Assembly (NCBI GenBank): GCA_938017985.1
Contig: CALIKS010000004.1
Coordinates: 54,692-118,691 of the forward strand
Origin: an uncultured archaeon
GTDB lineage: Archaea; Thermoproteota; Nitrososphaeria_A; Caldarchaeales; Calditenuaceae
Reading direction: 5' to 3'
DNA length: 64,000 nucleotides
The notes below the pieces were generated by a model, which ran no database searches, was not told the DNA's origin, and saw nothing but the letters and a program-made list of their open reading frames with translations. Position numbers and translations under genes: made by a program. Below, in pieces: positions 19,088 through 45,671 of the stretch (its first letter is position 1; the number at the start of each line of letters is the position of its first letter).

Positions 19088-19162
19088 GGGCCCGTGGCCT
19101 AGCTTGGATAAGGCGCCGGCCTGCGGAGCCGGAGAACGCGGGTTCAAGTCCCGCCGGGCCCG
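19088..19162 (+). tRNA. tRNA-Arg (anticodon GCG)
   Basis: Hand-folded cloverleaf: acceptor GGGCCCG/CGGGCCC, D stem GCCT/AGGC, anticodon stem CCGGC/GCCGG with loop CTGCGGA, T arm GCGGG-TTCAAGT-CCCGC, discriminator G. No intron. Confidence 0.85.
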
Positions 19163-34814: not shown

Positions 34815-35816
34815 GTGATGAAAAGGATAGGTTTCGCCGTCATAGGTCTGGGCTGGTTCGGTGAAAAACACGTCCACGTTCTGTCAGAGCTTCCAAATGT
34901 TGAATTAGTGGCGGTATGTTCACGTACTGAGTCGAGGTCTAAGGAAATTGCTAATAAATATGGTGCTAAGAGATGGTATACGGACTGGAGTAAGGTCGTT
35001 AATGACCCCGAAGTAGAAGCAGTTAGTGTAGTAACGCATGTTCCGGAACATAAGGAGCCAGTGATACTTGCAGCAGAGGCTGGAAAACATGTTTTAGTAG
35101 AGAAACCAATAGCTGGCAACCTAAAGGATGCCGACGAAATGATAGCAGCCACCGAGAAAAATAAAGTACACTTCATGGTGGGGCACATCCTTAGGTTCGA
35201 GAACCGCTATGCCCAGGCAAAAGAGGTCATAGATCGGGGAGCCATTGGAAAAATAGTCTCAATATACGCTAGGAGAAATATTCCAGCTGTATTCGCCGCG
35301 CCTCACCTCAGGTATGGCTCACCAATACTTTTAGACGCTATTCATGATACGGACATCATTTTGTGGTACTTGAAGGACAGAGTAGTAAGTGTCTATGCTA
35401 CTTGGCTAAATGTCCGCGGCTCGCCTAACCCAGAAATAACTTGGTCAGTGTATAATTTCTCTGCTGGGACTAAAGGAGTTTGTGAAAGTCTCTGGTTCCT
35501 TCCAGACAATACTGCCTTCGCAATAGATGCAAAAATGGAAATTCTCGGGAATGAGGGTGCGATTTACATAGATTGCGGAGACTCGGGCTTAGAGGTCAAT
35601 GATAAGAAGGGTGTTAAGAAATACGATACAATGCACTGGCCAATAATCCATGGAGAGATAGTAGGAGCACTGAAGGAAGAAATCAGCTATTTTGTAAAAT
35701 GTATAATGAATGATAAAAAACCCAGCGTGGTAACTCCTGCTGAGGCTCGACACGCATTAGAGATCGTTTTAGCTGCAGAAGAATCTGCAAGGACAGGAAA
35801 AGTAATCACTCTATAA
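34815..35816 (+). CDS. Gfo/Idh/MocA-family NAD(P)-dependent oxidoreductase
   Basis: N-terminal Rossmann fold (IGFAVIGLGWFGEKH) and the EKP motif. 333 aa. Confidence 0.85.
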   Translation: MMKRIGFAVIGLGWFGEKHVHVLSELPNVELVAVCSRTESRSKEIANKYGAKRWYTDWSKVVNDPEVEAVSVVTHVPEHKEPVILAAEAGKHVLVEKPIAGNLKDADEMIAATEKNKVHFMVGHILRFENRYAQAKEVIDRGAIGKIVSIYARRNIPAVFAAPHLRYGSPILLDAIHDTDIILWYLKDRVVSVYATWLNVRGSPNPEITWSVYNFSAGTKGVCESLWFLPDNTAFAIDAKMEILGNEGAIYIDCGDSGLEVNDKKGVKKYDTMHWPIIHGEIVGALKEEISYFVKCIMNDKKPSVVTPAEARHALEIVLAAEESARTGKVITL

Positions 35817-35834
35817 AAAATTAATTAATATTTT

Positions 35835-36698
35835 TTATGTAATCCCCTCAATTATTTTTAGTAATTTTTCTTTTGTGTCCTTTAGGTTCATCATAAGCTC
35901 TTTATCGTAAAATATTTCAGGTAGAATATATCCATCCCAACCTATGCTTTTCAATTTTTGCAAAACTTTTTCATAATCAATAGTGCCCATTCCGATTGGT
36001 AAATGATAAGGATAAGTACCATCATTGTCTGTTGCATGGATGCATTCGCAAAGCTTATCCTTTAGCTCTTCAATATAGACTATCGGAGATAAATAAACGT
36101 TGGCATTAGCGATGTCTAGGTATGCTTTGACATTATCCGAGTTAACCTCATCAACTACCTGGCGCATCTCGCCGGGCAAGTTTATAAAATTACTAACTAC
36201 CGTATTTTCAACTCCTAAGGTCACTCCTACGTCTTCTGCATGTTTTGCACATTCTTTCAAACTTTTAATTAGACTTGACCAGTATTGTTTATATGAATAG
36301 TTTGACTTCATGAAGTTTGGTTCGTCGATTTTTCCTGGTACGACAACTACTGTCGAGGCTCCAAGCTCGGAGGCTAGATTCATGTTTAATTTATACCATT
36401 CAACTGCTCTAGTTCTCTCAGAATCTGATTGAGAAGCTAAGTTAAACTCAAATATGAATGTCTGCCAGTCCTTTGATGTAAAGGGTATTGGACATGTTGA
36501 TACTGCCTTTATTCTAAACGAGTCGAGTTTAGACAATATCTCTGAAATTTGCGTCTTATTCATGTATTCGGGCCAAAAATGATTCTTATCAATCCATAAT
36601 TCTATGCATCTTAATCCTAAATCTCTTGCTATTTTCAAGCAATCTTCGAAATTGTATCCGACCTTTACGAGCGTACCCATTTGGAGAGCGACTTCCAT
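35835..36698 (-). CDS. sugar phosphate isomerase/epimerase (xylose isomerase-like TIM barrel)
   Basis: GVEN and H...IGMGTID metal-ligand motifs of the AP-endonuclease-2/xylose-isomerase-like TIM barrel. Confidence 0.8.
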   Translation of the reverse strand: MEVALQMGTLVKVGYNFEDCLKIARDLGLRCIELWIDKNHFWPEYMNKTQISEILSKLDSFRIKAVSTCPIPFTSKDWQTFIFEFNLASQSDSERTRAVEWYKLNMNLASELGASTVVVVPGKIDEPNFMKSNYSYKQYWSSLIKSLKECAKHAEDVGVTLGVENTVVSNFINLPGEMRQVVDEVNSDNVKAYLDIANANVYLSPIVYIEELKDKLCECIHATDNDGTYPYHLPIGMGTIDYEKVLQKLKSIGWDGYILPEIFYDKELMMNLKDTKEKLLKIIEGIT

Positions 36699-36915: not shown

Positions 36916-37998
36916 ATGGCCAGTAAAGTTATAATTAAAGATTTAACAAAGCGTTTCGGCAGCACGATTGCTGTTAACAAATTAAATCTAGAAATTAAGG
37001 CAGGCGAGTTTGTTTGCTTCTTGGGACCGTCAGGATGCGGTAAGACTACTACTCTTAGATGCATTGCTGGTTTAGAAAGACAGGATGAAGGCGATATTTA
37101 CATTGATGACGAGCTTGTAAACGATTTACCACCATCAGAAAGAGACATTGCAATGGTATTCCAATTTCCAGTAGTTTATCCCGCGACGACTGTTAGAGAT
37201 AATTTAGAATTTCCACTGAAGCAAAGGAAACTTTCTCGAGGCGAAATCAAAGAAAGAGTTAATGAAATTGCTAAGATACTAAGGATAGAACATATTCTGA
37301 ATAGAATCGCTACTGATCTAAACATTGGTGAAAAGCAAAGAGTAGCGATTGGTAGAGCCCTCATTAGGCGTCCAAAGGTCCTCTTACTAGATGAGGCCCT
37401 AACGAATCTTGACACTGAGATGAAGCTCTCAATGATAGCTGAGCTTAAAAGAATTCATGAAGAGTTTAATCAGACTATTGTCTACGTTACCCATGATCAG
37501 TCAGAGGCATTAATGATGGCAGATAAAATAGCTGTGATGAATCTTGGCGTCTTGCAGCAATACGATACTCCAGAACAGCTATATTCATCTCCGAAAAATC
37601 TTTTTGTGGCTGGGTTTATTGGGAGCCCACCGATGAACCTCATCAATGTAAATTACAATAAAGAAAAAGAGACTATAGAGATAAATAACATTTCCATTGA
37701 TTTTTCAAAATATAGCGATTTAATCAGAGAAAAGGCTTCTTCAGATACACTTGTCTTAGGATTTAGGCCTGAATATGTATCAATACATAAAAAATGTGGG
37801 AGGAAGGATCATTTGATGGGAGAAGTAGAGATAGTTGAGCTGCTCGAAGATCGTCTATCACTCGACATAAGAGTAGTAGATCAAATAGTTAAGGCAGTTA
37901 TTCCATCAAATTATCAGGTGAACATCGGTGACGAAGTATGCATCGAGCTTAACAAGTTCCATCTCTTTGATGAAAAATCAGGAGAAACTATAATGTAG
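36916..37998 (+). CDS. ABC transporter ATP-binding protein (MalK-like), degenerate signature motif
   Basis: Walker A GPSGCGKTT, Q-loop VFQ, Walker B LLLDEAL and H-loop VTHDQ are intact. The signature reads LNIGEKQRVA instead of LSGGQRQRVA. A C-terminal MalK-like regulatory domain is present. Confidence 0.9.
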   Translation: MASKVIIKDLTKRFGSTIAVNKLNLEIKAGEFVCFLGPSGCGKTTTLRCIAGLERQDEGDIYIDDELVNDLPPSERDIAMVFQFPVVYPATTVRDNLEFPLKQRKLSRGEIKERVNEIAKILRIEHILNRIATDLNIGEKQRVAIGRALIRRPKVLLLDEALTNLDTEMKLSMIAELKRIHEEFNQTIVYVTHDQSEALMMADKIAVMNLGVLQQYDTPEQLYSSPKNLFVAGFIGSPPMNLINVNYNKEKETIEINNISIDFSKYSDLIREKASSDTLVLGFRPEYVSIHKKCGRKDHLMGEVEIVELLEDRLSLDIRVVDQIVKAVIPSNYQVNIGDEVCIELNKFHLFDEKSGETIM

Positions 37999-38008
37999 GT
38001 GAGTCATT

Positions 38009-39088
38009 ATGCCTGAAATTTATCTTGAAAATGTTGTTAAACATTATGGAAAACATGTGGCAATAAATAATCTAACATTAAAAGTGAATGATAAGGAATT
38101 CCTTGGACTTCTCGGTCCTCCTGGAGCTGGGAAAAGCACAATTCTAAAATTAATAGCTGGTATAGAAAAGCCCGATAGTGGAAATATATACATAGACGGG
38201 AGACTTGTAAATGATGTACCCCCAATAGAAAGAGACGTTTCAATGATGTTTGAGACTCTTGCATTATATCCACATTTATCAGTTTATGAAAATTTAGCGT
38301 TTCCACTCAGAAAACTAAATCTAAATGAGGATGAAATAAGATTAAGAATTCGCGAGACAGCTGAACTACTTCGCATAGATCATTTGTTAGATAGAAAGCC
38401 AGCACAGCTTAGTGGAGGTGAGAGACAGAGAGTAGCGCTAGGCAGGGCATTAGTTAAAAGATCTAAGATATTATTATTAGACGAGCCTTTAGGCCACTTA
38501 GACGCTAAGCTCAGAGTTTATGCTAGGGTCGAGATTAGGAAGATCCAAAAAATGCTAGGACAGACAGCTATAATGTCTACTTTTAGTGTATTTGATGCCG
38601 CAACAATATCAGACAGGGTTGCAATAATTAACAACGGTGAGATTCTTCAAGTAGATAGTCCTAAAAATATATTTGATAGACCCAGAAATATATTTGTGGC
38701 GAAATGTGTCAGTTCACTTCCATTAAATCTTATTTCATGCAAAATAGATAAAAGACAAGATAAAATTTTCCTTGTTTCTCAGAAATTTGAACTTGACGTA
38801 ACAGGATTATCCACATATTTATCAGACAGAATCGGTGATGATGTAATACTTGGCATGAGGCCATCAGTAATAACGATAAAAAACTCTCCTCCTGGAATTG
38901 AGTCCATAGTGGATGCGATTGAGCCAATGGGGTCTGAGAACATTCTAAAGGTTAATGCCGGAGGCGTTGATATGTTTATTAAAGCTCCGTCATCTACATT
39001 TTACAGAAGAGGAGAAAAAATCTGGACAGAACCCATGCTTGACAAAATATATATATTCAACAAAAATGAAGAATTAATCTATCCTTAA
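38009..39088 (+). CDS. ABC transporter ATP-binding protein (MalK-like), degenerate Q- and H-loops
   Basis: Walker A GPPGAGKST, canonical signature LSGGERQRVALGRAL and Walker B LLLDEPL. The Q-loop reads MMFETLAL (Q to E) and the H-loop region is STFSVFD (His absent). Confidence 0.85.
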   Translation: MPEIYLENVVKHYGKHVAINNLTLKVNDKEFLGLLGPPGAGKSTILKLIAGIEKPDSGNIYIDGRLVNDVPPIERDVSMMFETLALYPHLSVYENLAFPLRKLNLNEDEIRLRIRETAELLRIDHLLDRKPAQLSGGERQRVALGRALVKRSKILLLDEPLGHLDAKLRVYARVEIRKIQKMLGQTAIMSTFSVFDAATISDRVAIINNGEILQVDSPKNIFDRPRNIFVAKCVSSLPLNLISCKIDKRQDKIFLVSQKFELDVTGLSTYLSDRIGDDVILGMRPSVITIKNSPPGIESIVDAIEPMGSENILKVNAGGVDMFIKAPSSTFYRRGEKIWTEPMLDKIYIFNKNEELIYP

Positions 39089-39096
39089 ATTTTTAT

Positions 39097-40107
39097 TTAT
39101 TTCGGTTTTACTGGCTTTCCAATTTTTGCCGACTCATAACTAGCTATTGTAATTGCTACGCCTTGGCGTCCGTCGATCCCGGATGCTATTGGATTTTTAT
39201 CCTCTACTATGCATTCTATGAAGCTTCTAATCATCTCTAGGTCGCAGTCGCATCCATAATAATGCCACGTCAATTTGTCATTTGGCTTATCCGAACCAAT
39301 GTAAGAAATATTTTGTTTAAAGGCATCTAGTAAAATTACGCCGTCGGTTCCAATCACTTTCATTGTTACATCTCCCCAAGTATATAGGCCCGCTGCGTAA
39401 GACCAGCTTCCATCGATATGTCCAACAGCTCCGTTCTCCATTAATAAAGTCGTCAAGAAGTTATCCTCAACATCAATATTCTTATTGACATTCTTTCCAA
39501 TCTCCGTGTAAACTTCGGATGCCTCACTATTCGTATACCATCTAATGAGGTCTGCCAAATGCACAGTATGGTCCATGACGGCTCCTCCACCAGAAAGTTT
39601 CTGATCAGTAAACCATCTTCTCAGAAGCGGCAAACTAGAATTAAGCTTATTCGTACCAATCAACGCTAATACTTTCCCAAATCTCCCTTCATTGATCAAG
39701 TTCTTGACTAGTATAGAAGCAGAGTGATACCGCATAACAAAGCATGTCTGGAATTTTACTCCTGACTTTTCTGCTTTCTTGATCATGTCATCAGCATCTT
39801 CTACAGTTGTGGCTATTGGCTTTTCGCATAGGATATGTTTTCCCGCCTCGGCGGCTTTGACAGCATAGTCGTGGTGCTTAACGTTTTCAGCAGTAATAAT
39901 TACTGCGTCAACGTCCTCTCTCTTTAGTAATTGTGCTGCATCTTTGTAGTATTCAATTTTGAAATTATTAGAGAACTCTTTTCCTAGTTTTTCATCTTCG
40001 TCATAGACTGCTACTATTTCTGCGTCTGGAATTTTTTTAATTGCGTTTGCATAGTTATCGGCATGGAAATGAGCCACTCCCAAAAAGCCAAATCTTATCT
40101 TTTTCAT
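39097..40107 (-). CDS. Gfo/Idh/MocA-family oxidoreductase
   Basis: Rossmann N-terminus and the EKP motif. First of three contiguous paralogs on the minus strand. Confidence 0.85.
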   Translation of the reverse strand: MKKIRFGFLGVAHFHADNYANAIKKIPDAEIVAVYDEDEKLGKEFSNNFKIEYYKDAAQLLKREDVDAVIITAENVKHHDYAVKAAEAGKHILCEKPIATTVEDADDMIKKAEKSGVKFQTCFVMRYHSASILVKNLINEGRFGKVLALIGTNKLNSSLPLLRRWFTDQKLSGGGAVMDHTVHLADLIRWYTNSEASEVYTEIGKNVNKNIDVEDNFLTTLLMENGAVGHIDGSWSYAAGLYTWGDVTMKVIGTDGVILLDAFKQNISYIGSDKPNDKLTWHYYGCDCDLEMIRSFIECIVEDKNPIASGIDGRQGVAITIASYESAKIGKPVKPK

Positions 40108-40111
40108 ATCT

Positions 40112-41146
40112 TCATCCCTCCTTTAAAGGTAGGTTGACAGGCATATTTAGTTCGGCTGATTTAAGAGCTGCTATGCAGACTTCTAGGCTCCTCCTCGCTA
40201 CTTCACCATCCGTCATTGGTGTTTTATCTTCCTTGATGCACTCGACAAAATGTTTTAACTCCCTATAAAATGGGTCGACTGGAAATGGATGGACAGCAGG
40301 CCTCCAAGGTAGGGATTCTGGCGAGAATCCACTAATCGACTCACTCGTAATCAGTTTAACAGGCACTGGTGATTGATTATCAAAACTAATCATCCCATTA
40401 GTACCGTCTACTTCAAAATTCATCATAAATGGATGCATTTTCGGTAATGCCCAGCTTGCTTCTACTAGGGCAATACCATTATTTTCAAATCTTAAATTGA
40501 TTAGTGCAAAGTCTTCAGCTGTTATGTCTTTATGGACGAGCTTCCTGACTACGCCATATACTCTCTTAACTTTGCTATTAAATATCCACATTAAATAATC
40601 AACATCATGAATAGCTAGGTCAATTGCGACGCCACCGCTCTGATTCTTATCTAAAAACCATGGGCTCCATTCAGGAATTGGGCCGCCTCTAAACGTTCTA
40701 GCTATTACTGGCTCACCGACCATTCCCCGATCAATTAGCTCTTTTGCTTTCATGTATTCTGGAAAAAATCTTAATACATGCCCTACCATTAACTTGACAT
40801 TATTCTTTATAGATGCCTCGATAATTGCGTCTGCCTCTTTTAATGTAAGGGCTATTGGCTTCTCAAGAAATACATGTTTGCCGGCATTCATGGAGGTTAT
40901 TGAGTAACTGGCATGCGTAGAAGTCGGTGTACAGACATCTACTATGTCTATGTCTTTTCTCTTCAATACTTCATCAATATTGTTATATGCCTCTACTCCA
41001 AATTTTTTCGAGACTTCTCTGACTTTCTCAATATTTCTACCGATCAAGGCTTTTACTTCGCATTCATTAATATATCGCCACGCTGAAAGATGAGTGGTGC
41101 CCATAAAGCCATATCCTACTATTGCCACTCCAAGTTTATCAGTCAT
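40112..41146 (-). CDS. Gfo/Idh/MocA-family oxidoreductase
   Basis: GVAIVGYGFMGTTH Rossmann motif and EKP. Confidence 0.85.
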   Translation of the reverse strand: MTDKLGVAIVGYGFMGTTHLSAWRYINECEVKALIGRNIEKVREVSKKFGVEAYNNIDEVLKRKDIDIVDVCTPTSTHASYSITSMNAGKHVFLEKPIALTLKEADAIIEASIKNNVKLMVGHVLRFFPEYMKAKELIDRGMVGEPVIARTFRGGPIPEWSPWFLDKNQSGGVAIDLAIHDVDYLMWIFNSKVKRVYGVVRKLVHKDITAEDFALINLRFENNGIALVEASWALPKMHPFMMNFEVDGTNGMISFDNQSPVPVKLITSESISGFSPESLPWRPAVHPFPVDPFYRELKHFVECIKEDKTPMTDGEVARRSLEVCIAALKSAELNMPVNLPLKEG

Positions 41147-41160
41147 GTTTTAACCCCAGC

Positions 41161-42231
41161 CTACTTGATTAATGGCAGCTTTACAGGCCTGTTTTCACTG
41201 TAAGAAATTATTGCCGCAAGAGCAGCTTCATGAGTATTTACAGCATCCTCAACGCTGCAATGAGATTCCTTATCTTTCAATATGCAGTCAACGAAGTGAT
41301 TTACTTCTCCCTCAAATGGATGGTGTCTAACGTCGGCCGTGTCTGGTAGAATTGTTGGAATCGTAACCCAGTCAGTCTGTCCTGGAAACTTGCTGGGAGC
41401 CCAGACTCTATTGTTTACTATTGTTCCCTTATCGCCAAAAATGGTTATGGGGAAATAATAAGGACTGGCGCAGTCAAAGTTTGAATTAATCTTTCCTATA
41501 GCTCCGTTTTCAAACTTCGCTAAAAGCACTTCAAGTCCATAATATTTTAAGTCCTTAACATGTCTATGACCACCTGAATATGCGAATACTTCGTTAATAT
41601 TGTTAGTCTTTTCGGCCTCTTTGCAAGAGAGCCATCTTGCAGCATCAAGCGCGTGGACGCCTGCTACTATAAAGCTACTGACACCATATTCTTTTGTATT
41701 GGCCCACTTCCAGCCTGACCACCACTCAGCAATGTGCGAGTTATATCCAGTCTCTATGTAATATACATCTCCTAAAGCCCCCTCAAAGAGGAGCGATTTA
41801 ATAGTCTGGAAGAGAGGATTCCATCTAAGGACGAATCCTACTACAGTTTTTACCCTAGACTTCCTAACGGCGTCCCTAATCATTTTTAACTGCTCTAGAC
41901 TAATGGCTATTGGTTTTTCAACTACCATGTGTTTTTTCGCCTCAGCTGCCAGTACTGCCTGCTCGACGTGTAGATGCTGCGGAGAACATATAGCGACTAT
42001 GTCCACGTTTGGGTCGTCGACAAGTTTTTGATAGTCAGTGTAGAGCTTAACATCTTTTAATCCACATTCCCTCGCCAAATTTTCACAGCTAACCATCCGG
42101 GGACTCATGAGAGCGACTACCTTTGTATGCGGGTTCTTCTCGAATGCAGGGACGTATTGCGTCGATACCCAGCCACAACCCGCAATACCTACTCCTAAAA
42201 TACGATTCTTGGACATAAAAAGTGATAACAA
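41161..42231 (-). CDS. Gfo/Idh/MocA-family oxidoreductase
   Basis: LGVGIAGCGWVS Rossmann motif and EKP. 356 aa. Confidence 0.85.
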   Translation of the reverse strand: MLSLFMSKNRILGVGIAGCGWVSTQYVPAFEKNPHTKVVALMSPRMVSCENLARECGLKDVKLYTDYQKLVDDPNVDIVAICSPQHLHVEQAVLAAEAKKHMVVEKPIAISLEQLKMIRDAVRKSRVKTVVGFVLRWNPLFQTIKSLLFEGALGDVYYIETGYNSHIAEWWSGWKWANTKEYGVSSFIVAGVHALDAARWLSCKEAEKTNNINEVFAYSGGHRHVKDLKYYGLEVLLAKFENGAIGKINSNFDCASPYYFPITIFGDKGTIVNNRVWAPSKFPGQTDWVTIPTILPDTADVRHHPFEGEVNHFVDCILKDKESHCSVEDAVNTHEAALAAIISYSENRPVKLPLIK

Positions 42232-42319: not shown

Positions 42320-43882
42320 ATGCGTGAAAATATGAGTGGTCAAGAGAAAGTTGTTTCTAGACGCAAATTCCTTGGTGCTGTAGGTGGGCTGGCGGCAGCA
42401 ACCGTTGTCGGATGGGGCCTAGCAGGGTATTACGCAGCACAACCTCCAAGAGAAGTGGTAAGGACTGTCACCCAGACCCAAACCGTGACTCAAACAGTTA
42501 CACAGACGGTGGGCGTCACCACGACCCCTCCGACTACTACGGCTACGCTTCCTCCACTTAGTAAATTCGTAGACATCGAGTGGGGGATCTGGAGCTGGGG
42601 AGTTGAGCTCTGCAACGACAATGCAAGAATCTTCAATGAGAATAACACAGACATGAAGCTACACGTAACTGACCTCGGTGCGAACTATATGGCAAACCTA
42701 TTTGCAAGATACGCGGCTGGCGACCCGCCCGACATATACTACGCTACTCCAGACATAGCATATGTCGTCCAGTATAGAAAGTGGGCAGCCGACATTGAGG
42801 ATTATTTCCCCGAGGCTAGGAGATATTTAGATGATATATACCCTGGAATGAGGGAGTTCTACATCAACCCGTTCACTGGTAAAGTTCATGGCCTCTGCTA
42901 CTGGGCTGGACCATACGTGTTTGCCTACAATAAGAGACACCTATCCGAGGCTGGAATAGGCGCTCCACCCAAAAACTATGAAGAGGTTGCTGAGCAGGCT
43001 AGAATAATAAAGCAGAAAGGAATATGCGAGTATCCAATTGGAGCGCTATGGTCATGGGGATTCCCTGCCCTTTGGTACAATATAATGTTGGGTTATCATG
43101 AGCCAAAGCCAGGGACACGCTTCCTATTTGATGAAGACTTAAATCCAATATTTGACGACAGGGGAACTCCATTCTTCGAGGCCATTAAATGGTTATTAGA
43201 AAGAGTCGTAGTGGACAAGACAATATCGCCAGGAATTAGAGAATATGACGAGTCTGGTATAACTACGGCATTGGGTTCAGGAACTGTCACATTCTGTCCC
43301 AACTTACCAGACTACGACATAGCGGGGGCCAATGTGCCAGAACTTAAGGAAAGCGGTAACATAACTATGTGCTTGAATCCGGGAACTGGTTATGCAGTAT
43401 ATCACCCAACAAACTATAGCACCTCAACCAGGTGTATGGAGAAGGGAAGAGACAACCAAATTGCAGTATGGCGAGTAATGCAATTCCTCGGAGGTAAGAC
43501 TACTAATGCTAGGCCAGACTTTGAACGTGGTGAATACTTTGTATGCAACAGGTTAATCAGGCAATACGGTGTAACTTCAGCGTATAGGCCAGTGATGGAG
43601 GACCCAACTAACAAGGAAGTCTTAAGAAAATTAAAGATAGATCCAGATCTCCTTCTCGCTCAGTATGAAAAGCTAACTACGATACTTTGGAGGGACCCCG
43701 TCCTGACGCCCTGGTGGGCTGACTGGTTTAGCTCTCCAAGTAGTGAGGCTGGAGGAAGAGTCAAACCAAAGTTTGAAGAATTCTTAACTGGCGCCAGATC
43801 ATACAGCGATGCTGATATTTTGAATTTCTTGAAGGAAATAGCAGAGGATTGGAAAAGAGCTAAGAAGGAGGCTGGAATGTAG
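42320..43882 (+). CDS. ABC transporter extracellular solute-binding protein (sugar), with Thr-rich linker
   Basis: N-terminal signal/anchor helix, then TVTQTQTVTQTVTQTVGVTTTPPTTTATLPP linker, then a family 1-like SBP fold. 520 aa. Confidence 0.8.
   Translation: MRENMSGQEKVVSRRKFLGAVGGLAAATVVGWGLAGYYAAQPPREVVRTVTQTQTVTQTVTQTVGVTTTPPTTTATLPPLSKFVDIEWGIWSWGVELCNDNARIFNENNTDMKLHVTDLGANYMANLFARYAAGDPPDIYYATPDIAYVVQYRKWAADIEDYFPEARRYLDDIYPGMREFYINPFTGKVHGLCYWAGPYVFAYNKRHLSEAGIGAPPKNYEEVAEQARIIKQKGICEYPIGALWSWGFPALWYNIMLGYHEPKPGTRFLFDEDLNPIFDDRGTPFFEAIKWLLERVVVDKTISPGIREYDESGITTALGSGTVTFCPNLPDYDIAGANVPELKESGNITMCLNPGTGYAVYHPTNYSTSTRCMEKGRDNQIAVWRVMQFLGGKTTNARPDFERGEYFVCNRLIRQYGVTSAYRPVMEDPTNKEVLRKLKIDPDLLLAQYEKLTTILWRDPVLTPWWADWFSSPSSEAGGRVKPKFEEFLTGARSYSDADILNFLKEIAEDWKRAKKEAGM
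42466..42545 (+). repeat. degenerate tandem hexanucleotide repeats encoding a (TVTQ)n / poly-Thr linker
   Basis: Repeated acccagacc/caaaccgtgact/caaacagttaca units inside the SBP gene. Confidence 0.5.
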
Positions 43883-43883
43883 A

Positions 43884-44768
43884 GTGGTCTCGAAGACGGC
43901 AACGCTATTCATCTGTCTAATTCCAGCTTTAACCCCTCTTTTTTTGTTTGGATTTTATCCCCTTACTTATGCATTTTATCTTAGCTTCACCTTCTATAAT
44001 TTAAAAACGCCAATTGAGCCGTACTTCTATGGGTTAGGTAATTACTTTGCCTTATCAGAAGACCCCGTCTTTATAAGGGCGCTGCAGGCTACGGGCCTAT
44101 TTGCGTTAATTACGGTGCCGTTGATAACTTTAATATCGCTTGGGCAAGCACTTTTGCTTGCTAGTCAGTTTAAAGGAGTCAAATATCTTCAGGTTCTCGC
44201 GCTGCTTCCTTGGGGAATACCGCTAGTCGTGAGTTCAACGGTCTATAGATTGTTCTTTGATTTTAATTTTGGTTTATTTAATGATTTAATGGTAAAACTA
44301 GGCGTTATAAATCAGTATGTTTCTTGGCTCTCGATGCCTTGGTCGGCTCTGTTTATTGTGGCGTTAGCACATATTTGGGTTAATACTCCATTACCAACGC
44401 TACTTATTCTAGCAGGTATACAATCAATACCAAAGGAACTTTACGAAGCTGCATATATAGATGGAGCGAAGACCTTTGCGCGGTTTAAAATGGTTACTTG
44501 GAATTGGCTTCGACCAATAATGCTAATAGTACTGGTCTATTCCTCACTCAGTGCATTGTGGTGTTTTGACCCAATCTATGTAATAACTGCAGGCGGTCCA
44601 GCCGACTTCACAAAGCTAATAACTTTCTACACATATGAAAAAATGTTTAGCTACCTTAACTTTGGACACGCTGGAGCAATAACAATTCTAATCCTAGGAC
44701 TAACGGGATTATTAATATACGCATACTTCAGGGCCTTGAGGCTTGGACGCGTTAGATTAAGGGTGTGA
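43884..44768 (+). CDS. ABC transporter permease (MalF/UgpA-like)
   Basis: 6 TM helices and an EAA-like loop (EAAYIDGAKTFARF). Confidence 0.85.
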   Translation: MVSKTATLFICLIPALTPLFLFGFYPLTYAFYLSFTFYNLKTPIEPYFYGLGNYFALSEDPVFIRALQATGLFALITVPLITLISLGQALLLASQFKGVKYLQVLALLPWGIPLVVSSTVYRLFFDFNFGLFNDLMVKLGVINQYVSWLSMPWSALFIVALAHIWVNTPLPTLLILAGIQSIPKELYEAAYIDGAKTFARFKMVTWNWLRPIMLIVLVYSSLSALWCFDPIYVITAGGPADFTKLITFYTYEKMFSYLNFGHAGAITILILGLTGLLIYAYFRALRLGRVRLRV

Positions 44769-44774
44769 GGCGTC

Positions 44775-45671
44775 ATGGCATTAAACACAAAAAAGTCTAA
44801 CTTGGGATTGTATATCGCGGCTCTCATAGTAGTAATTTGGATAGTCTTCCCGATTTACTGGATGATAAACCTAAGTGTGCAGACAGAGAAGGAAATATAC
44901 AGTGTTCCTCCATATTATATTCCGCCCAATCCTAATATAAACAACTACTGGTTCATCTTTGACATCGATGCTGCAGTTAAATATTTCTTAGAACAAGGCA
45001 TGTCTCTCTTCCTATTTATCCCTGGCTCGATCAAAGATTTTCCGAGAGCAATACTCAATAGCGTAATAATTGCAGGCGTGGTAATGATTTACAACCTCAT
45101 TGCCGGAACTCTCGGCTCATTTGCCTTGACTAGGATTAGGTTTAAAGGAGCCATGCCATTATTTTATCTCTCAATAGTTGGAAGATTATTGCCCCCCGTC
45201 GTCATCGCAGTCCCTTACTACGTAATAATCAGAAGCATTGGCCTGCTTGACACCTTGTGGTCAGTAATTATGGTTCATATAATGTTTACTATGCCCTTCA
45301 CAATATGGATATTAAACACATACCTTCTAGGCATACCGACAGACATAGAAGACGCTGCAAGAGTAGATGGATACTCATACTTCGAGATCCTGAGAAAAAT
45401 TACTTTCCCAATCATAAAACCAGCCATTGTGGCAATCGCGATAACTTCGTTCATGATTTCCTATGGCGAATTCTTCTATGCTCTGCTGCTCACGAAGACT
45501 GCGGCATCAAGAACTATTCCAGTAATCATTGGCTCAGCAATGTCTGAGCCCAGGGTAGTTAAGGGCCTGATATGTGCCATGGGGGTCCTTGCGATGATTC
45601 CAGCAATGGCCATAATAATAATCTTCAGGAGATATTTGATAAGAGGACTTGTAGCAGGAGCAGTAAAGTAA
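44775..45671 (+). CDS. ABC transporter permease (MalG/UgpE-like)
   Basis: 6 TM helices and an EAA loop (EDAARVDGYSYFEI). Confidence 0.85.
   Translation: MALNTKKSNLGLYIAALIVVIWIVFPIYWMINLSVQTEKEIYSVPPYYIPPNPNINNYWFIFDIDAAVKYFLEQGMSLFLFIPGSIKDFPRAILNSVIIAGVVMIYNLIAGTLGSFALTRIRFKGAMPLFYLSIVGRLLPPVVIAVPYYVIIRSIGLLDTLWSVIMVHIMFTMPFTIWILNTYLLGIPTDIEDAARVDGYSYFEILRKITFPIIKPAIVAIAITSFMISYGEFFYALLLTKTAASRTIPVIIGSAMSEPRVVKGLICAMGVLAMIPAMAIIIIFRRYLIRGLVAGAVK

What the first reader, a model, noticed from the sequence alone, without database searches (positions are those of the whole stretch)
36916..39088. Two MalK-like ATPases with complementary motif degeneracy predict an asymmetric heterodimer
NBD1 (36916) has intact Walker A/B, Q-loop and H-loop but a degenerate signature, LNIGE in place of LSGGQ. 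NBD2 (38009) has a canonical signature LSGGERQ but Q-loop Q to E (MFETLAL) and no H-loop histidine (STFSVFD for VTHDQ). In a head-to-tail dimer this yields one all-consensus site (NBD1 catalytic motifs plus NBD2 signature) and one all-degenerate site. That is the pattern of heterodimeric exporters such as TM287/288 and CFTR, and it is rarely noted for type I sugar importers.
Basis: seen in the sequence. Interest (0 to 1): 0.55.

Follow-up and report, generated by a model that had tools for sequence, protein, structure and literature searches.

The report
One-active-site MalK-type ATPase pair
Two adjacent sugar-importer ATPase genes carry complementary, conserved motif losses, so only a mixed dimer has a complete ATP-hydrolysing site; the same arrangement recurs in many uncultured archaea, and I found no paper describing it for this transporter class.

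Summary
NBD1 (36916-37998) keeps Walker A/B, Q-loop Gln83 and H-loop His193, but its signature is LNIGE. NBD2 (38009-39088) keeps LSGGE but has Glu82 for the Q-loop Gln and Phe192 for the H-loop His. It has no other His nearby except a new D-loop His163.

Gap-free HMMER and MAFFT alignments to solved MalK-type ATPases fix the motif positions. All orthologs down to about 50% identity keep the substitutions.

The pair belongs to a larger pattern. Of 233 homologs, 78 have a degenerate signature with an intact H-loop, 52 have an intact signature with a lost H-loop (F/P/V), and none has both defects. In 8 further loci examined by gene neighbourhood, plus one found in a control scan, the two types lie together beside one binding protein and two permeases. 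Two other loci are only partly complementary.

Both genes are under strong purifying selection, and the partners co-diverge. A one-consensus-site heterodimer is therefore the best reading, though it is inferred and not shown biochemically.

One correction: the Gln-to-Glu change co-varies with the D-loop His and also occurs in H-loop-intact partners, so it may not be a defect. The host is a Nitrososphaerota (Wolframiiraptor-like) archaeon, not Thermoproteales.

The parts
36916..37998 (+). NBD1, the 'A-type' MalK-like ATPase. Catalytic motifs are intact: Walker A nt 37024-37050, Q-loop Gln83 nt 37153-37182, Walker B Glu160 nt 37381-37413, H-loop His193 nt 37486-37500. The signature is degenerate: LNIGE, nt 37318-37332.
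37999..38008 (+). 10-nt spacer (GTGAGTCATT after the TAG stop). A GGTGA Shine-Dalgarno-like element lies just before the NBD2 ATG, consistent with co-transcription of the two genes.
   Evidence: sequence read directly
38009..39088 (+). NBD2, the 'B-type' MalK-like ATPase. The signature LSGGE is intact (nt 38408-38422), as are Walker A (nt 38114-38140) and Walker B Glu159. The Q-loop has Glu82 (nt 38243-38272), the D-loop has His163 in LGHLD (nt 38471-38503), and the H-loop His is replaced by Phe192 (STFSV, nt 38576-38590). The AlphaFold2 model is confident over the full length and matches the MalK fold, including the C-terminal beta domain.
42320..43882 (+). Substrate-binding protein (SBP_bac_1). 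It has an N-terminal twin-arginine-like SRRKFLG motif, a hydrophobic anchor and a Thr-rich linker. It is the presumed receptor of the same transporter.
   Evidence: the same gene lies next to the ATPase pair in L001, L004, L006, L007
43884..44768 (+). Permease 1 (UgpA/MalF-like, BPD_transp_1, weak Pfam hit) with an EAA loop (EAAYIDGAKTF...).
44775..45671 (+). Permease 2 (GlcU/MalG/UgpE-like, BPD_transp_1) with an EAA loop (EDAARVDGYSYF...).
34815..36698 (.). Context genes: a Gfo/Idh/MocA oxidoreductase (34815-35816, +) and a xylose-isomerase-like TIM-barrel protein (35835-36698, -), upstream of NBD1.
   Evidence: conserved in L001
39097..42231 (-). Context genes: three Gfo/Idh/MocA oxidoreductase genes lying between the ATPase pair and the binding-protein/permease operon.
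   Evidence: Gfo/Idh/MocA genes also flank the pair in L001, L004, L006, L007, L092

Best explanation
NBD1 and NBD2 are the two different ATPase subunits of one CUT1-type (MalK-type, type I) sugar importer. The other parts are the binding protein at 42320-43882 and the two permeases at 43884-45671.

The two subunits form a head-to-tail heterodimer. Site 1 combines NBD1's Walker A/B, Gln83 and His193 with NBD2's LSGGE and D-loop. It is a full consensus site and does the ATP hydrolysis. Site 2 combines NBD2's Walker A/B, Glu82 and Phe192 with NBD1's LNIGE. It lacks both the H-loop His and a usable signature. It most likely binds ATP, because the A-loop Tyr13, Walker A Lys and Walker B Asp/Glu are kept, but hydrolyses it slowly or not at all. 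On this reading the pump turns over one ATP per cycle.

Shown: the motif states, their conservation, the mutual exclusivity of the two defect types, the gene pairing, purifying selection and co-divergence. Inferred: physical heterodimerisation, ATP binding at site 2, and hydrolysis at site 1 only.
For: 1. Motif states are fixed by gap-free alignments to solved MalK homologs. The NBD2 model has pLDDT 92.6 and TM 0.88-0.93 to MalK-type chains.
2. A homodimer of either protein would have two defective sites. Only the heterodimer gives a consensus site (logic from the head-to-tail ABC dimer; established knowledge).
3. Among 233 homologs, 104 are canonical, 78 are signature-degenerate with H intact, 52 are signature-intact with H lost, and 0 have both defects.
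4. Adjacent complementary pairs beside one binding protein and two permeases occur in L001, L004, L006, L007, L009, L010 and L093. L092 has the adjacent pair, but no binding-protein or permease gene lies in the ~12-kb stretch read. L051, an Alphaproteobacteria MAG, has the two types about 3.3 kb apart. Gene order is A-B or B-A.
5. Constraint is relaxed reciprocally. A-type signature positions S/G/G have 1.8/2.3/1.1 bits of entropy while its catalytic motifs are near 0. The B-type signature has 0 bits while its H position has 1.6 bits and its Walker A Lys 0.7 bits, with K-to-R in 11 sequences.
6. Window versus L001: dN is 0.113 (NBD1) and 0.128 (NBD2), with synonymous sites near saturation, giving dN/dS of about 0.06 for both.
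7. Partner identity matrices correlate at r = 0.905, Mantel 0/5000, over 10 pairs.
8. These are the only two ABC ATPase genes in the 64-kb window. They are 10 nt apart, with a Shine-Dalgarno-like GGTGA before NBD2.
Against: - There is no biochemical or structural evidence for the heterodimer or for site-specific hydrolysis.
- The Walker B catalytic Glu of NBD2 is retained. Loss of this residue is described as the hallmark of exporter degenerate sites (PMC7544095 abstract), so residual activity at site 2 cannot be excluded.
- Q-to-E co-varies with a D-loop His and also occurs in H-loop-intact subunits (L095_g1 and the L071 pair), so it may be an alternative functional configuration.
- Not every pair is fully complementary. 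The L094 partner keeps His, and L095 has both signatures intact.
- The ATPase genes are separated from the binding-protein/permease operon by three oxidoreductase genes on the opposite strand, so the assignment to that transporter is by proximity and conserved neighbourhood only.
Confidence: 0.7

Rival explanations
1. The two proteins form a heterodimer, but both sites are still catalytically competent. The substitutions are compensated, for example by NBD2's D-loop His163 and Q-loop Glu82 forming an alternative catalytic arrangement, and LNIGE still allows dimer closure.
For: The Walker B Glu159, Walker A Lys and A-loop Tyr of NBD2 are intact. Q-to-E and D-loop N-to-H co-vary strongly: 34 of 37 Glu-bearing sequences have the D-loop His, against 8 of 319 Gln-bearing sequences. 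The combination also occurs in subunits that keep the H-loop His (L095_g1; L071).
Against: - The large H-to-P ('TPD') B-type clade has no D-loop His and keeps Gln, so compensation cannot be general.
- The A-type signature takes 25 different forms, including loss of both Gly residues (LNISE, LGPAE, LTMDQ). This looks like release from constraint rather than an alternative functional motif.
- A subclade of NBD2 relatives additionally has Walker A K-to-R.
- Replacing the H-loop His, or the signature Ser/Gly, inactivates canonical ABC ATPases such as MalK H192 and HlyB H662 (own knowledge).
Confidence: 0.17
2. The two proteins do not form a heterodimer. NBD1 homodimers energise the transporter, or the two serve different transporters as shared 'multitask' ATPases, and NBD2 is a non-catalytic regulator or spare paralog.
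For: CUT1 systems commonly share a single MalK/MsmK-type ATPase, and all solved MalK-type ATPases are homodimers (PMC7658222 title). The ATPase pair is not in the same transcription unit as the permeases.
Against: - An NBD1 homodimer would have LNIGE in both sites, and an NBD2 homodimer would lack the H-loop His in both.
- Complementary types sit next to each other across loci with 42-82% identity, in both gene orders.
- The defects are mutually exclusive and the partners co-diverge.
- There is one binding protein and two permeases per pair.
Confidence: 0.08
3. The substitutions are sequencing or assembly noise, or recent decay of a redundant paralog.
For: None beyond the prior that MAG-derived sequences can carry errors.
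Against: The same motifs appear in independent assemblies from NCBI, JGI, ENA and Logan. The ORFs are full length. dN/dS is about 0.06 for both genes. The NBD2 model is confident and full length.
Confidence: 0.01

Closest known systems
Heterodimeric ABC exporters with one degenerate site (TM287/288, TmrAB, BmrCD, TAP1/TAP2, CFTR)
   Same: Two non-identical NBDs. The defects in one subunit's catalytic motifs (H-loop) and the other subunit's signature map to the same composite site, leaving one consensus site. TAP1 (H-loop and Walker B changed) with TAP2 (signature LAAGQ) is the closest formal parallel (own knowledge; the general principle is in PMC3971661 and PMC7756269).
   Different: Those are exporter-fold transporters with NBDs fused to TMDs. 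Their hallmark change is loss of the Walker B catalytic Glu (PMC7544095). Here the NBDs are separate, MalK-type, and carry a C-terminal regulatory-type domain. They serve a binding-protein-dependent type I importer, and the Walker B Glu is retained.
MalK2 of E. coli MalFGK2 and archaeal homologs (T. litoralis MalK 1g29, P. horikoshii PH0203 2it1 and 1v43, S. solfataricus GlcV 1oxs)
   Same: Same fold and domain order. NBD1 and NBD2 match these chains at E 1e-57 to 1e-88, and the NBD2 model matches at TM 0.83-0.91. They belong to the same transporter class, CUT1, with one binding protein and two different permeases.
   Different: The known examples are homodimers with two identical consensus sites. 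In MalFGK2, a single mutant MalK subunit severely impairs transport (Davidson and Sharma 1997, own knowledge). Here there are two paralogs only 35% identical to each other, with one consensus site.
Fused-NBD importer ATPases of the CUT2/nucleoside class (RbsA, NupO, MglA)
   Same: An importer ATPase in which one of the two composite sites is degenerate has been noted before (PMC11466899).
   Different: Those are single polypeptides with two fused NBDs in a different subfamily and transporter type. Their degeneracy includes loss of the Walker A Lys, and in NupO of the Walker B residues.
Heterodimeric-NBD importers with two consensus sites (OppDF, DppDF, LivGF, NikDE; EcfA/EcfA')
   Same: Importers with two different ATPase subunits encoded by adjacent genes. 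In E. coli, 7 of 47 importers have heterodimeric NBDs (PMC12094219).
   Different: These are different ATPase subfamilies and, to my knowledge, generally have two consensus sites. They are not MalK-type.
Tandem MalK-like pairs in bacterial MAGs and genomes (Chloroflexota, e.g. Herpetosiphon L029; L012, L041, L056, L074)
   Same: Two adjacent MalK-like genes, implying MalK-type heterodimers.
   Different: Both partners keep the H-loop His and an LSGG[DE] signature, so there is no complementary degeneracy.

Membership tests
ABC-transporter ATPase (Pfam PF00005 ABC_tran) | Match above the Pfam gathering score, with Walker A, Walker B and signature region in order | tested here: met
   NBD1 scores 113.8 bits and NBD2 117.3 bits against a cutoff of 25.
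MalK-type (CUT1) NBD with C-terminal regulatory/OB-TOBE domain | About 360 aa, with an N-terminal NBD and a C-terminal beta-domain homologous to MalK/GlcV | tested here: met
   NBD1 hits PF17912 OB_MalK at 31.8 bits (cutoff 27). NBD2 has no Pfam C-domain hit, but it aligns over residues 1-355 to 2it1, and its model matches full-length MalK-type chains at TM 0.88-0.93.
NCBIfam UgpC subfamily NF008653 / MalK NF008233 / GlcV NF040933 | Score at or above the curated cutoff | tested here: not met
   UgpC: 348 and 334 bits against a cutoff of 432. MalK: 313 and 274 against 568. GlcV: 280 and 286 against 450. The proteins are related to these named families but are members of none.
ABC heterodimer with one consensus and one degenerate ATP site | Two distinct NBD polypeptides encoded together | tested here: met
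   The genes are adjacent, 10 nt apart, and 35% identical. Pairing is conserved in other loci.
ABC heterodimer with one consensus and one degenerate ATP site | Non-consensus catalytic residues in one NBD and a non-consensus signature in the other, mapping to the same composite site | tested here: met
   NBD2 has H-loop Phe192 (and Glu82). NBD1 has LNIGE. The other site is all consensus. The defects are mutually exclusive in 233 homologs.
ABC heterodimer with one consensus and one degenerate ATP site | Loss of the Walker B catalytic Glu in the degenerate site (the hallmark in exporters) | tested here: not met
   NBD2 keeps LLLDE (Glu159), as do all B-type relatives.
ABC heterodimer with one consensus and one degenerate ATP site | Physical heterodimer, with ATP hydrolysis only at the consensus site | not testable with these tools
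   This requires co-purification, site-specific mutants and nucleotide trapping.
CUT1 binding-protein-dependent importer (type I) | SBP_bac_1 binding protein plus two BPD_transp_1 permeases with EAA loops in the same neighbourhood | tested here: met
   Genes at 42320-45671. The same set lies beside the pair in L001, L004, L006, L007, L009, L010, L093 and L094.

The most novel reading that the evidence does not exclude
This pair is the most derived member of a large, so far undescribed family of MalK-type heterodimeric ATPases. The family is spread across uncultured archaea (Nitrososphaerota/Caldarchaeales, Bathyarchaeia, Methanomethylicaceae and Thermofilaceae loci confirmed; further H-loop-less relatives are labelled Nitrososphaeria and Bathyarchaeia) and occurs in at least one bacterial MAG. 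These ATPases would run type I sugar importers on a single catalytic site.

The complementary degeneracy may have arisen or been maintained repeatedly, since partners range from 38% to 70% identical within a locus. One sublineage has in addition rebuilt the site chemistry, with Q-loop Gln-to-Glu coupled to D-loop Asn-to-His.
Probability: 0.55. Interest if true: 0.7.

Novelty: new variant of a known kind. Interest (0 to 1): 0.6.

Why it matters
MalFGK2 is the textbook type I importer, and whether it uses one or two ATP per cycle is still listed as an open question (PMC6906923). Engineered single-site MalK dimers transport poorly (own knowledge). Degenerate sites have been treated as a feature of exporters (PMC3971661).

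A natural, conserved MalK-type heterodimer with one consensus site would show that a type I binding-protein-dependent importer can run on one hydrolytic site. It would provide thermostable material for structural work on asymmetric coupling to the two different permeases. It would also show that annotating both genes simply as 'sugar ABC transporter ATP-binding protein' hides a distinct family.

Tried and rejected
- **Genome-contig scan.** I ran it with an alignment that included the wider H-to-P clade. It therefore gave no taxonomic survey of close relatives. I reused the 80 loci as a control set: 73 have a single MalK, 7 have tandem pairs, and 1 has an A/B pair.
- **Exact lookup of P0001.** The 100% identical NBD2 protein was not on record. 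Organism assignment therefore rests on the syntenic 81-82% identical loci L001-L003 and on named homologs.
- **NJ tree with motif columns masked.** Deep branches are about 0.00-0.01 and unresolved. A-type is nearly one clade. B-type falls in at least two groups. No claim of a single origin is made.
- **Sigma-70 promoter and terminator scan.** Uninformative for an archaeon, and counts were at the shuffle level.
- **Rfam and tRNA scans of the window.** Only tRNA-Arg at 19088-19162, so there is no RNA element near the genes.
- **The strong AT skew at 60-62 kb.** It is just a run of minus-strand genes.
- **dN/dS.** Synonymous sites are near saturation (pS 0.69-0.81), so the ratios are rough.
- **Heterodimer structure prediction.** Not attempted. 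The tool folds single chains only and returns no coordinates.
- **Literature searches.** No paper was found describing MalK-type heterodimers with a degenerate site. This is absence within an open-access library, not proof of absence.
Full report
**1. What is there**

The window carries two adjacent same-strand ORFs at exactly the reported coordinates: NBD1 at 36916-37998 (360 aa) and NBD2 at 38009-39088 (359 aa). They are 10 nt apart, with a GGTGA Shine-Dalgarno-like element before the second ATG. They are the only ABC ATPase genes in the 64-kb window.

Both match Pfam ABC_tran. Both score highest against, but below the curated cutoffs of, the NCBIfam UgpC, MalK and GlcV models. Both align over their full length to solved MalK-type ATPases (7x0q, 1v43, 2d62, 1g29, 2it1, E. 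coli MalK, GlcV) at E 1e-57 to 1e-89. They are only 35% identical to each other, which is less than either is to canonical MalK homologs.

An AlphaFold2 model of NBD2 is confident throughout (pLDDT 92.6, pTM 0.86). It superposes on full-length MalK-type chains at TM 0.88-0.93. NBD2 is therefore an intact two-domain MalK-type protein, not a remnant.

**2. Motif check**

The HMMER alignments to solved structures are gap-free through all motifs. MAFFT alignments anchored on E. coli MalK agree with them.

| Motif | NBD1 | NBD2 |
|---|---|---|
| Walker A | GPSGCGKTT | GPPGAGKST |
| Q-loop | MVFQ (Gln83) | MMFE (Glu82) |
| Signature | LNIGE | LSGGE |
| Walker B / D-loop | LLLDEALTNLD | LLLDEPLGHLD (Glu159 kept, His163 new) |
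| H-loop | VTHDQ (His193) | STFSV (Phe192) |

NBD2 contains only five His residues (12, 16, 89, 125, 163), so no realignment can supply an H-loop His. LSGGE is the usual signature of canonical relatives in this lineage.

**3. Conservation**

NBD2 relatives:
- From 100% to 66% identity (P0001-P0011), all keep Glu and Phe.
- From 58% to 53% (P0012-P0024), all keep Glu and a non-His residue (Phe, one Leu), and most add a Walker A Lys-to-Arg change.
- At 51-47% (P0025-P0029), they have Gln with His-to-Val.
- A wider set has His-to-Pro ('TPD').

NBD1 relatives down to about 55% all have non-LSGG signatures (LNIGE, LNVGE, LDIGA, LDVGG, LNISE). A wider clade has LTAGE, LTPGE, LTVGE or LGPAE. All of these keep intact Walker A, Gln, Walker B and His.

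Classifying all 233 homologs gives 104 canonical, 78 'A-type' (signature degenerate, His intact), 52 'B-type' (signature intact, His lost: F 23, P 22, V 5, L 1, A 1), and none with both defects.

Positional entropy shows reciprocal relaxation. The A-type signature S/G/G positions carry 1.8/2.3/1.1 bits, while its catalytic motifs are essentially invariant. The B-type signature carries 0 bits, while its H position (1.6), Q position (1.0) and Walker A Lys (0.7) vary.

In a 50%-clustered library, 17 of the 124 full-length top representatives are B-type and 7 are A-type. A profile of the 'TPD' proteins recovers 36 more B-type clusters. The named sources of the sequences classified B-type are MAGs of Nitrososphaeria, Bathyarchaeia and Methanomethylicaceae. 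No cultured or characterised organism appeared.

**4. Pairing**

In every locus I pulled for an A- or B-type protein, the neighbouring gene is a second MalK-like ATPase. All but L092 also show one SBP_bac_1 gene and two BPD_transp_1 genes in the stretch read.

- Complementary A+B pairs: L001-L003 (Nitrososphaerota MAGs, syntenic with the window over more than 20 kb), L004/L005 (Bathyarchaeia), L006, L007 (archaeon HR01), L009, L010/L011 (Thermofilaceae-like), L092 and L093 (Methanomethylicaceae). Gene order is either A-B or B-A.
- A bacterial example: L051, an Alphaproteobacteria MAG, has both types about 3.3 kb apart.
- Two partial cases. In L094 the partner of an LTPGE protein keeps His but has APSGSGKST as its Walker A. 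In L095 both signatures are intact and only one subunit lost His.
- Control: of 80 generic MalK loci, 73 have a single MalK-like gene.

Across 10 pairs the A-A and B-B identity matrices correlate at r = 0.905 (Mantel 0/5000). This is expected for genes inherited together and consistent with co-evolution. Within-locus A-versus-B identity ranges from 38% (the window) to 70% (L093). This hints at repeated origin or at gene conversion with the motif differences maintained. The NJ tree cannot resolve the question.

**5. Selection**

Against the L001 orthologs, dN is 0.113 (NBD1) and 0.128 (NBD2). Synonymous sites are near saturation, so dN/dS is about 0.06 for both. NBD2 is not decaying.

**6. Mechanism**

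Steps 1-5 are shown. What follows is inference from the established head-to-tail ABC dimer.

A homodimer of either protein would have two defective sites. The heterodimer has one all-consensus site, formed by NBD1's catalytic motifs with NBD2's LSGGE and D-loop. Its other site lacks both the H-loop His and a signature. NBD2 keeps its A-loop Tyr, Walker A Lys and Walker B Asp/Glu, so the degenerate site probably still binds ATP, as in TM287/288, TAP and CFTR (own knowledge; PMC3971661). The pump would then turn over one ATP per cycle.

The conserved differences next to the Q-loop may reflect fixed docking of each subunit on one of the two different permeases. A-type has Q-F-P/Y and B-type has E/Q-S/T-L/Y. 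This is speculative.

**7. Caveat on Gln-to-Glu**

Across 356 sequences, the Q-loop Glu goes with a D-loop Asn-to-His change. Of 37 Glu-bearing sequences, 34 have the D-loop His, against 8 of 319 Gln-bearing sequences (not phylogenetically corrected). The combination also occurs in subunits with an intact H-loop (L095_g1; L071). It is therefore better treated as a coupled alternative configuration of unknown meaning than as a defect. The degeneracy argument rests on the H-loop and the signature.

**8. Comparison with what is known**

Degenerate sites are described as frequent in exporters (PMC3971661, PMC7756269). They have also been noted in the fused RbsA/NupO importer ATPases (PMC11466899). 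E. coli importers with heterodimeric NBDs exist, 7 of 47 (PMC12094219), but they belong to other subfamilies. All solved MalK-type ATPases are homodimers.

Six literature searches found no description of a MalK-type heterodimer with a degenerate site. The MalFGK2 review lists 'one or two ATP per cycle' as an open question (PMC6906923). Unlike exporter degenerate sites, the Walker B Glu is kept here (PMC7544095).

I rate this a new variant of a known kind.

**9. Organism and context**

The closest loci are labelled Nitrososphaerota archaeon, and a 68%-identical NBD1 homolog comes from Candidatus Wolframiiraptor. The host is not Thermoproteales.

The transporter genes sit among four Gfo/Idh/MocA oxidoreductase genes and a xylose-isomerase-like TIM-barrel gene. 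This association recurs in L001, L004, L006, L007 and L092. It suggests uptake of a sugar, glycoside or cyclitol that is oxidised on entry. The substrate is unknown.

**10. Verdict**

The asymmetric-heterodimer interpretation is supported by comparative evidence and awaits biochemistry. Interest is 0.6.

Noticed in passing
window 38243-38272 and 38471-38503 (NBD2 Glu82 and His163); also L095:4863-7104 and L071: Q-loop Gln-to-Glu co-varies with D-loop Asn-to-His (SNLD to xHLD). Of 37 Glu-bearing MalK-like sequences, 34 have the D-loop His, against 8 of 319 Gln-bearing ones. It is seen in at least two clades and also in subunits with an intact H-loop. The analysis is not phylogenetically corrected, and the structural meaning is unknown.
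   Followed up: partly
L093:4886-7086 (Methanomethylicaceae MAG GCA_038845695): The A-type and B-type partners here are 70% identical to each other, against 38% in the window, yet they still show complementary LTAGE/THD versus LSGGE/TPD motifs. This suggests either recurrent origin of the asymmetry or gene conversion with selection keeping the motif differences.
   Followed up: partly
L012, L029, L041, L056, L074 (Chloroflexota and other bacterial loci): Tandem MalK-like gene pairs in which both partners keep the H-loop His, with signatures LSGGD and LSGGE and distinct Walker A forms (GPSGCGKTT and GPTGAGKTT). These imply MalK-type heterodimers without degeneracy.
   Followed up: no
window 42320-43882 compared with L001:14365-15912: The binding protein is 96% identical in amino acids to its ortholog although synonymous sites are saturated (pS 0.74). 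The two ATPases are only 81-82% identical and the permeases 90-92%. The binding protein is thus under unusually strong constraint relative to the ATPases.
   Followed up: no
window 34815-36698 and 39097-42231: Four Gfo/Idh/MocA oxidoreductase paralogs and a xylose-isomerase-like TIM-barrel gene surround the transporter genes. The same association recurs in L001, L004, L006, L007 and L092, pointing to an oxidative sugar, glycoside or cyclitol pathway with an unknown substrate.
   Followed up: partly
window 42320-42560 (N-terminus of the binding protein): A twin-arginine-like SRRKFLG motif is followed by a hydrophobic segment and a Thr-rich repeat (TVTQTQTVTQTVTQTV...TTTPPTTT). This looks like a membrane-anchored, probably glycosylated archaeal binding-protein linker.
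   Followed up: no
P0012-P0024 (e.g. L004:8001-9083, Bathyarchaeia): A subclade of NBD2 relatives additionally changes the Walker A Lys to Arg (GSGRTT). This is a further step of degeneration in the same site.
   Followed up: partly
L092 (GCA_975902045, protein labelled [Eubacterium] cellulosolvens): An A/B pair sits in a context (URO-D, B12-binding and Gfo/Idh/MocA genes) almost identical to the Bathyarchaeia locus L004. The bacterial label may reflect a mis-binned or contaminating contig.
   Followed up: no
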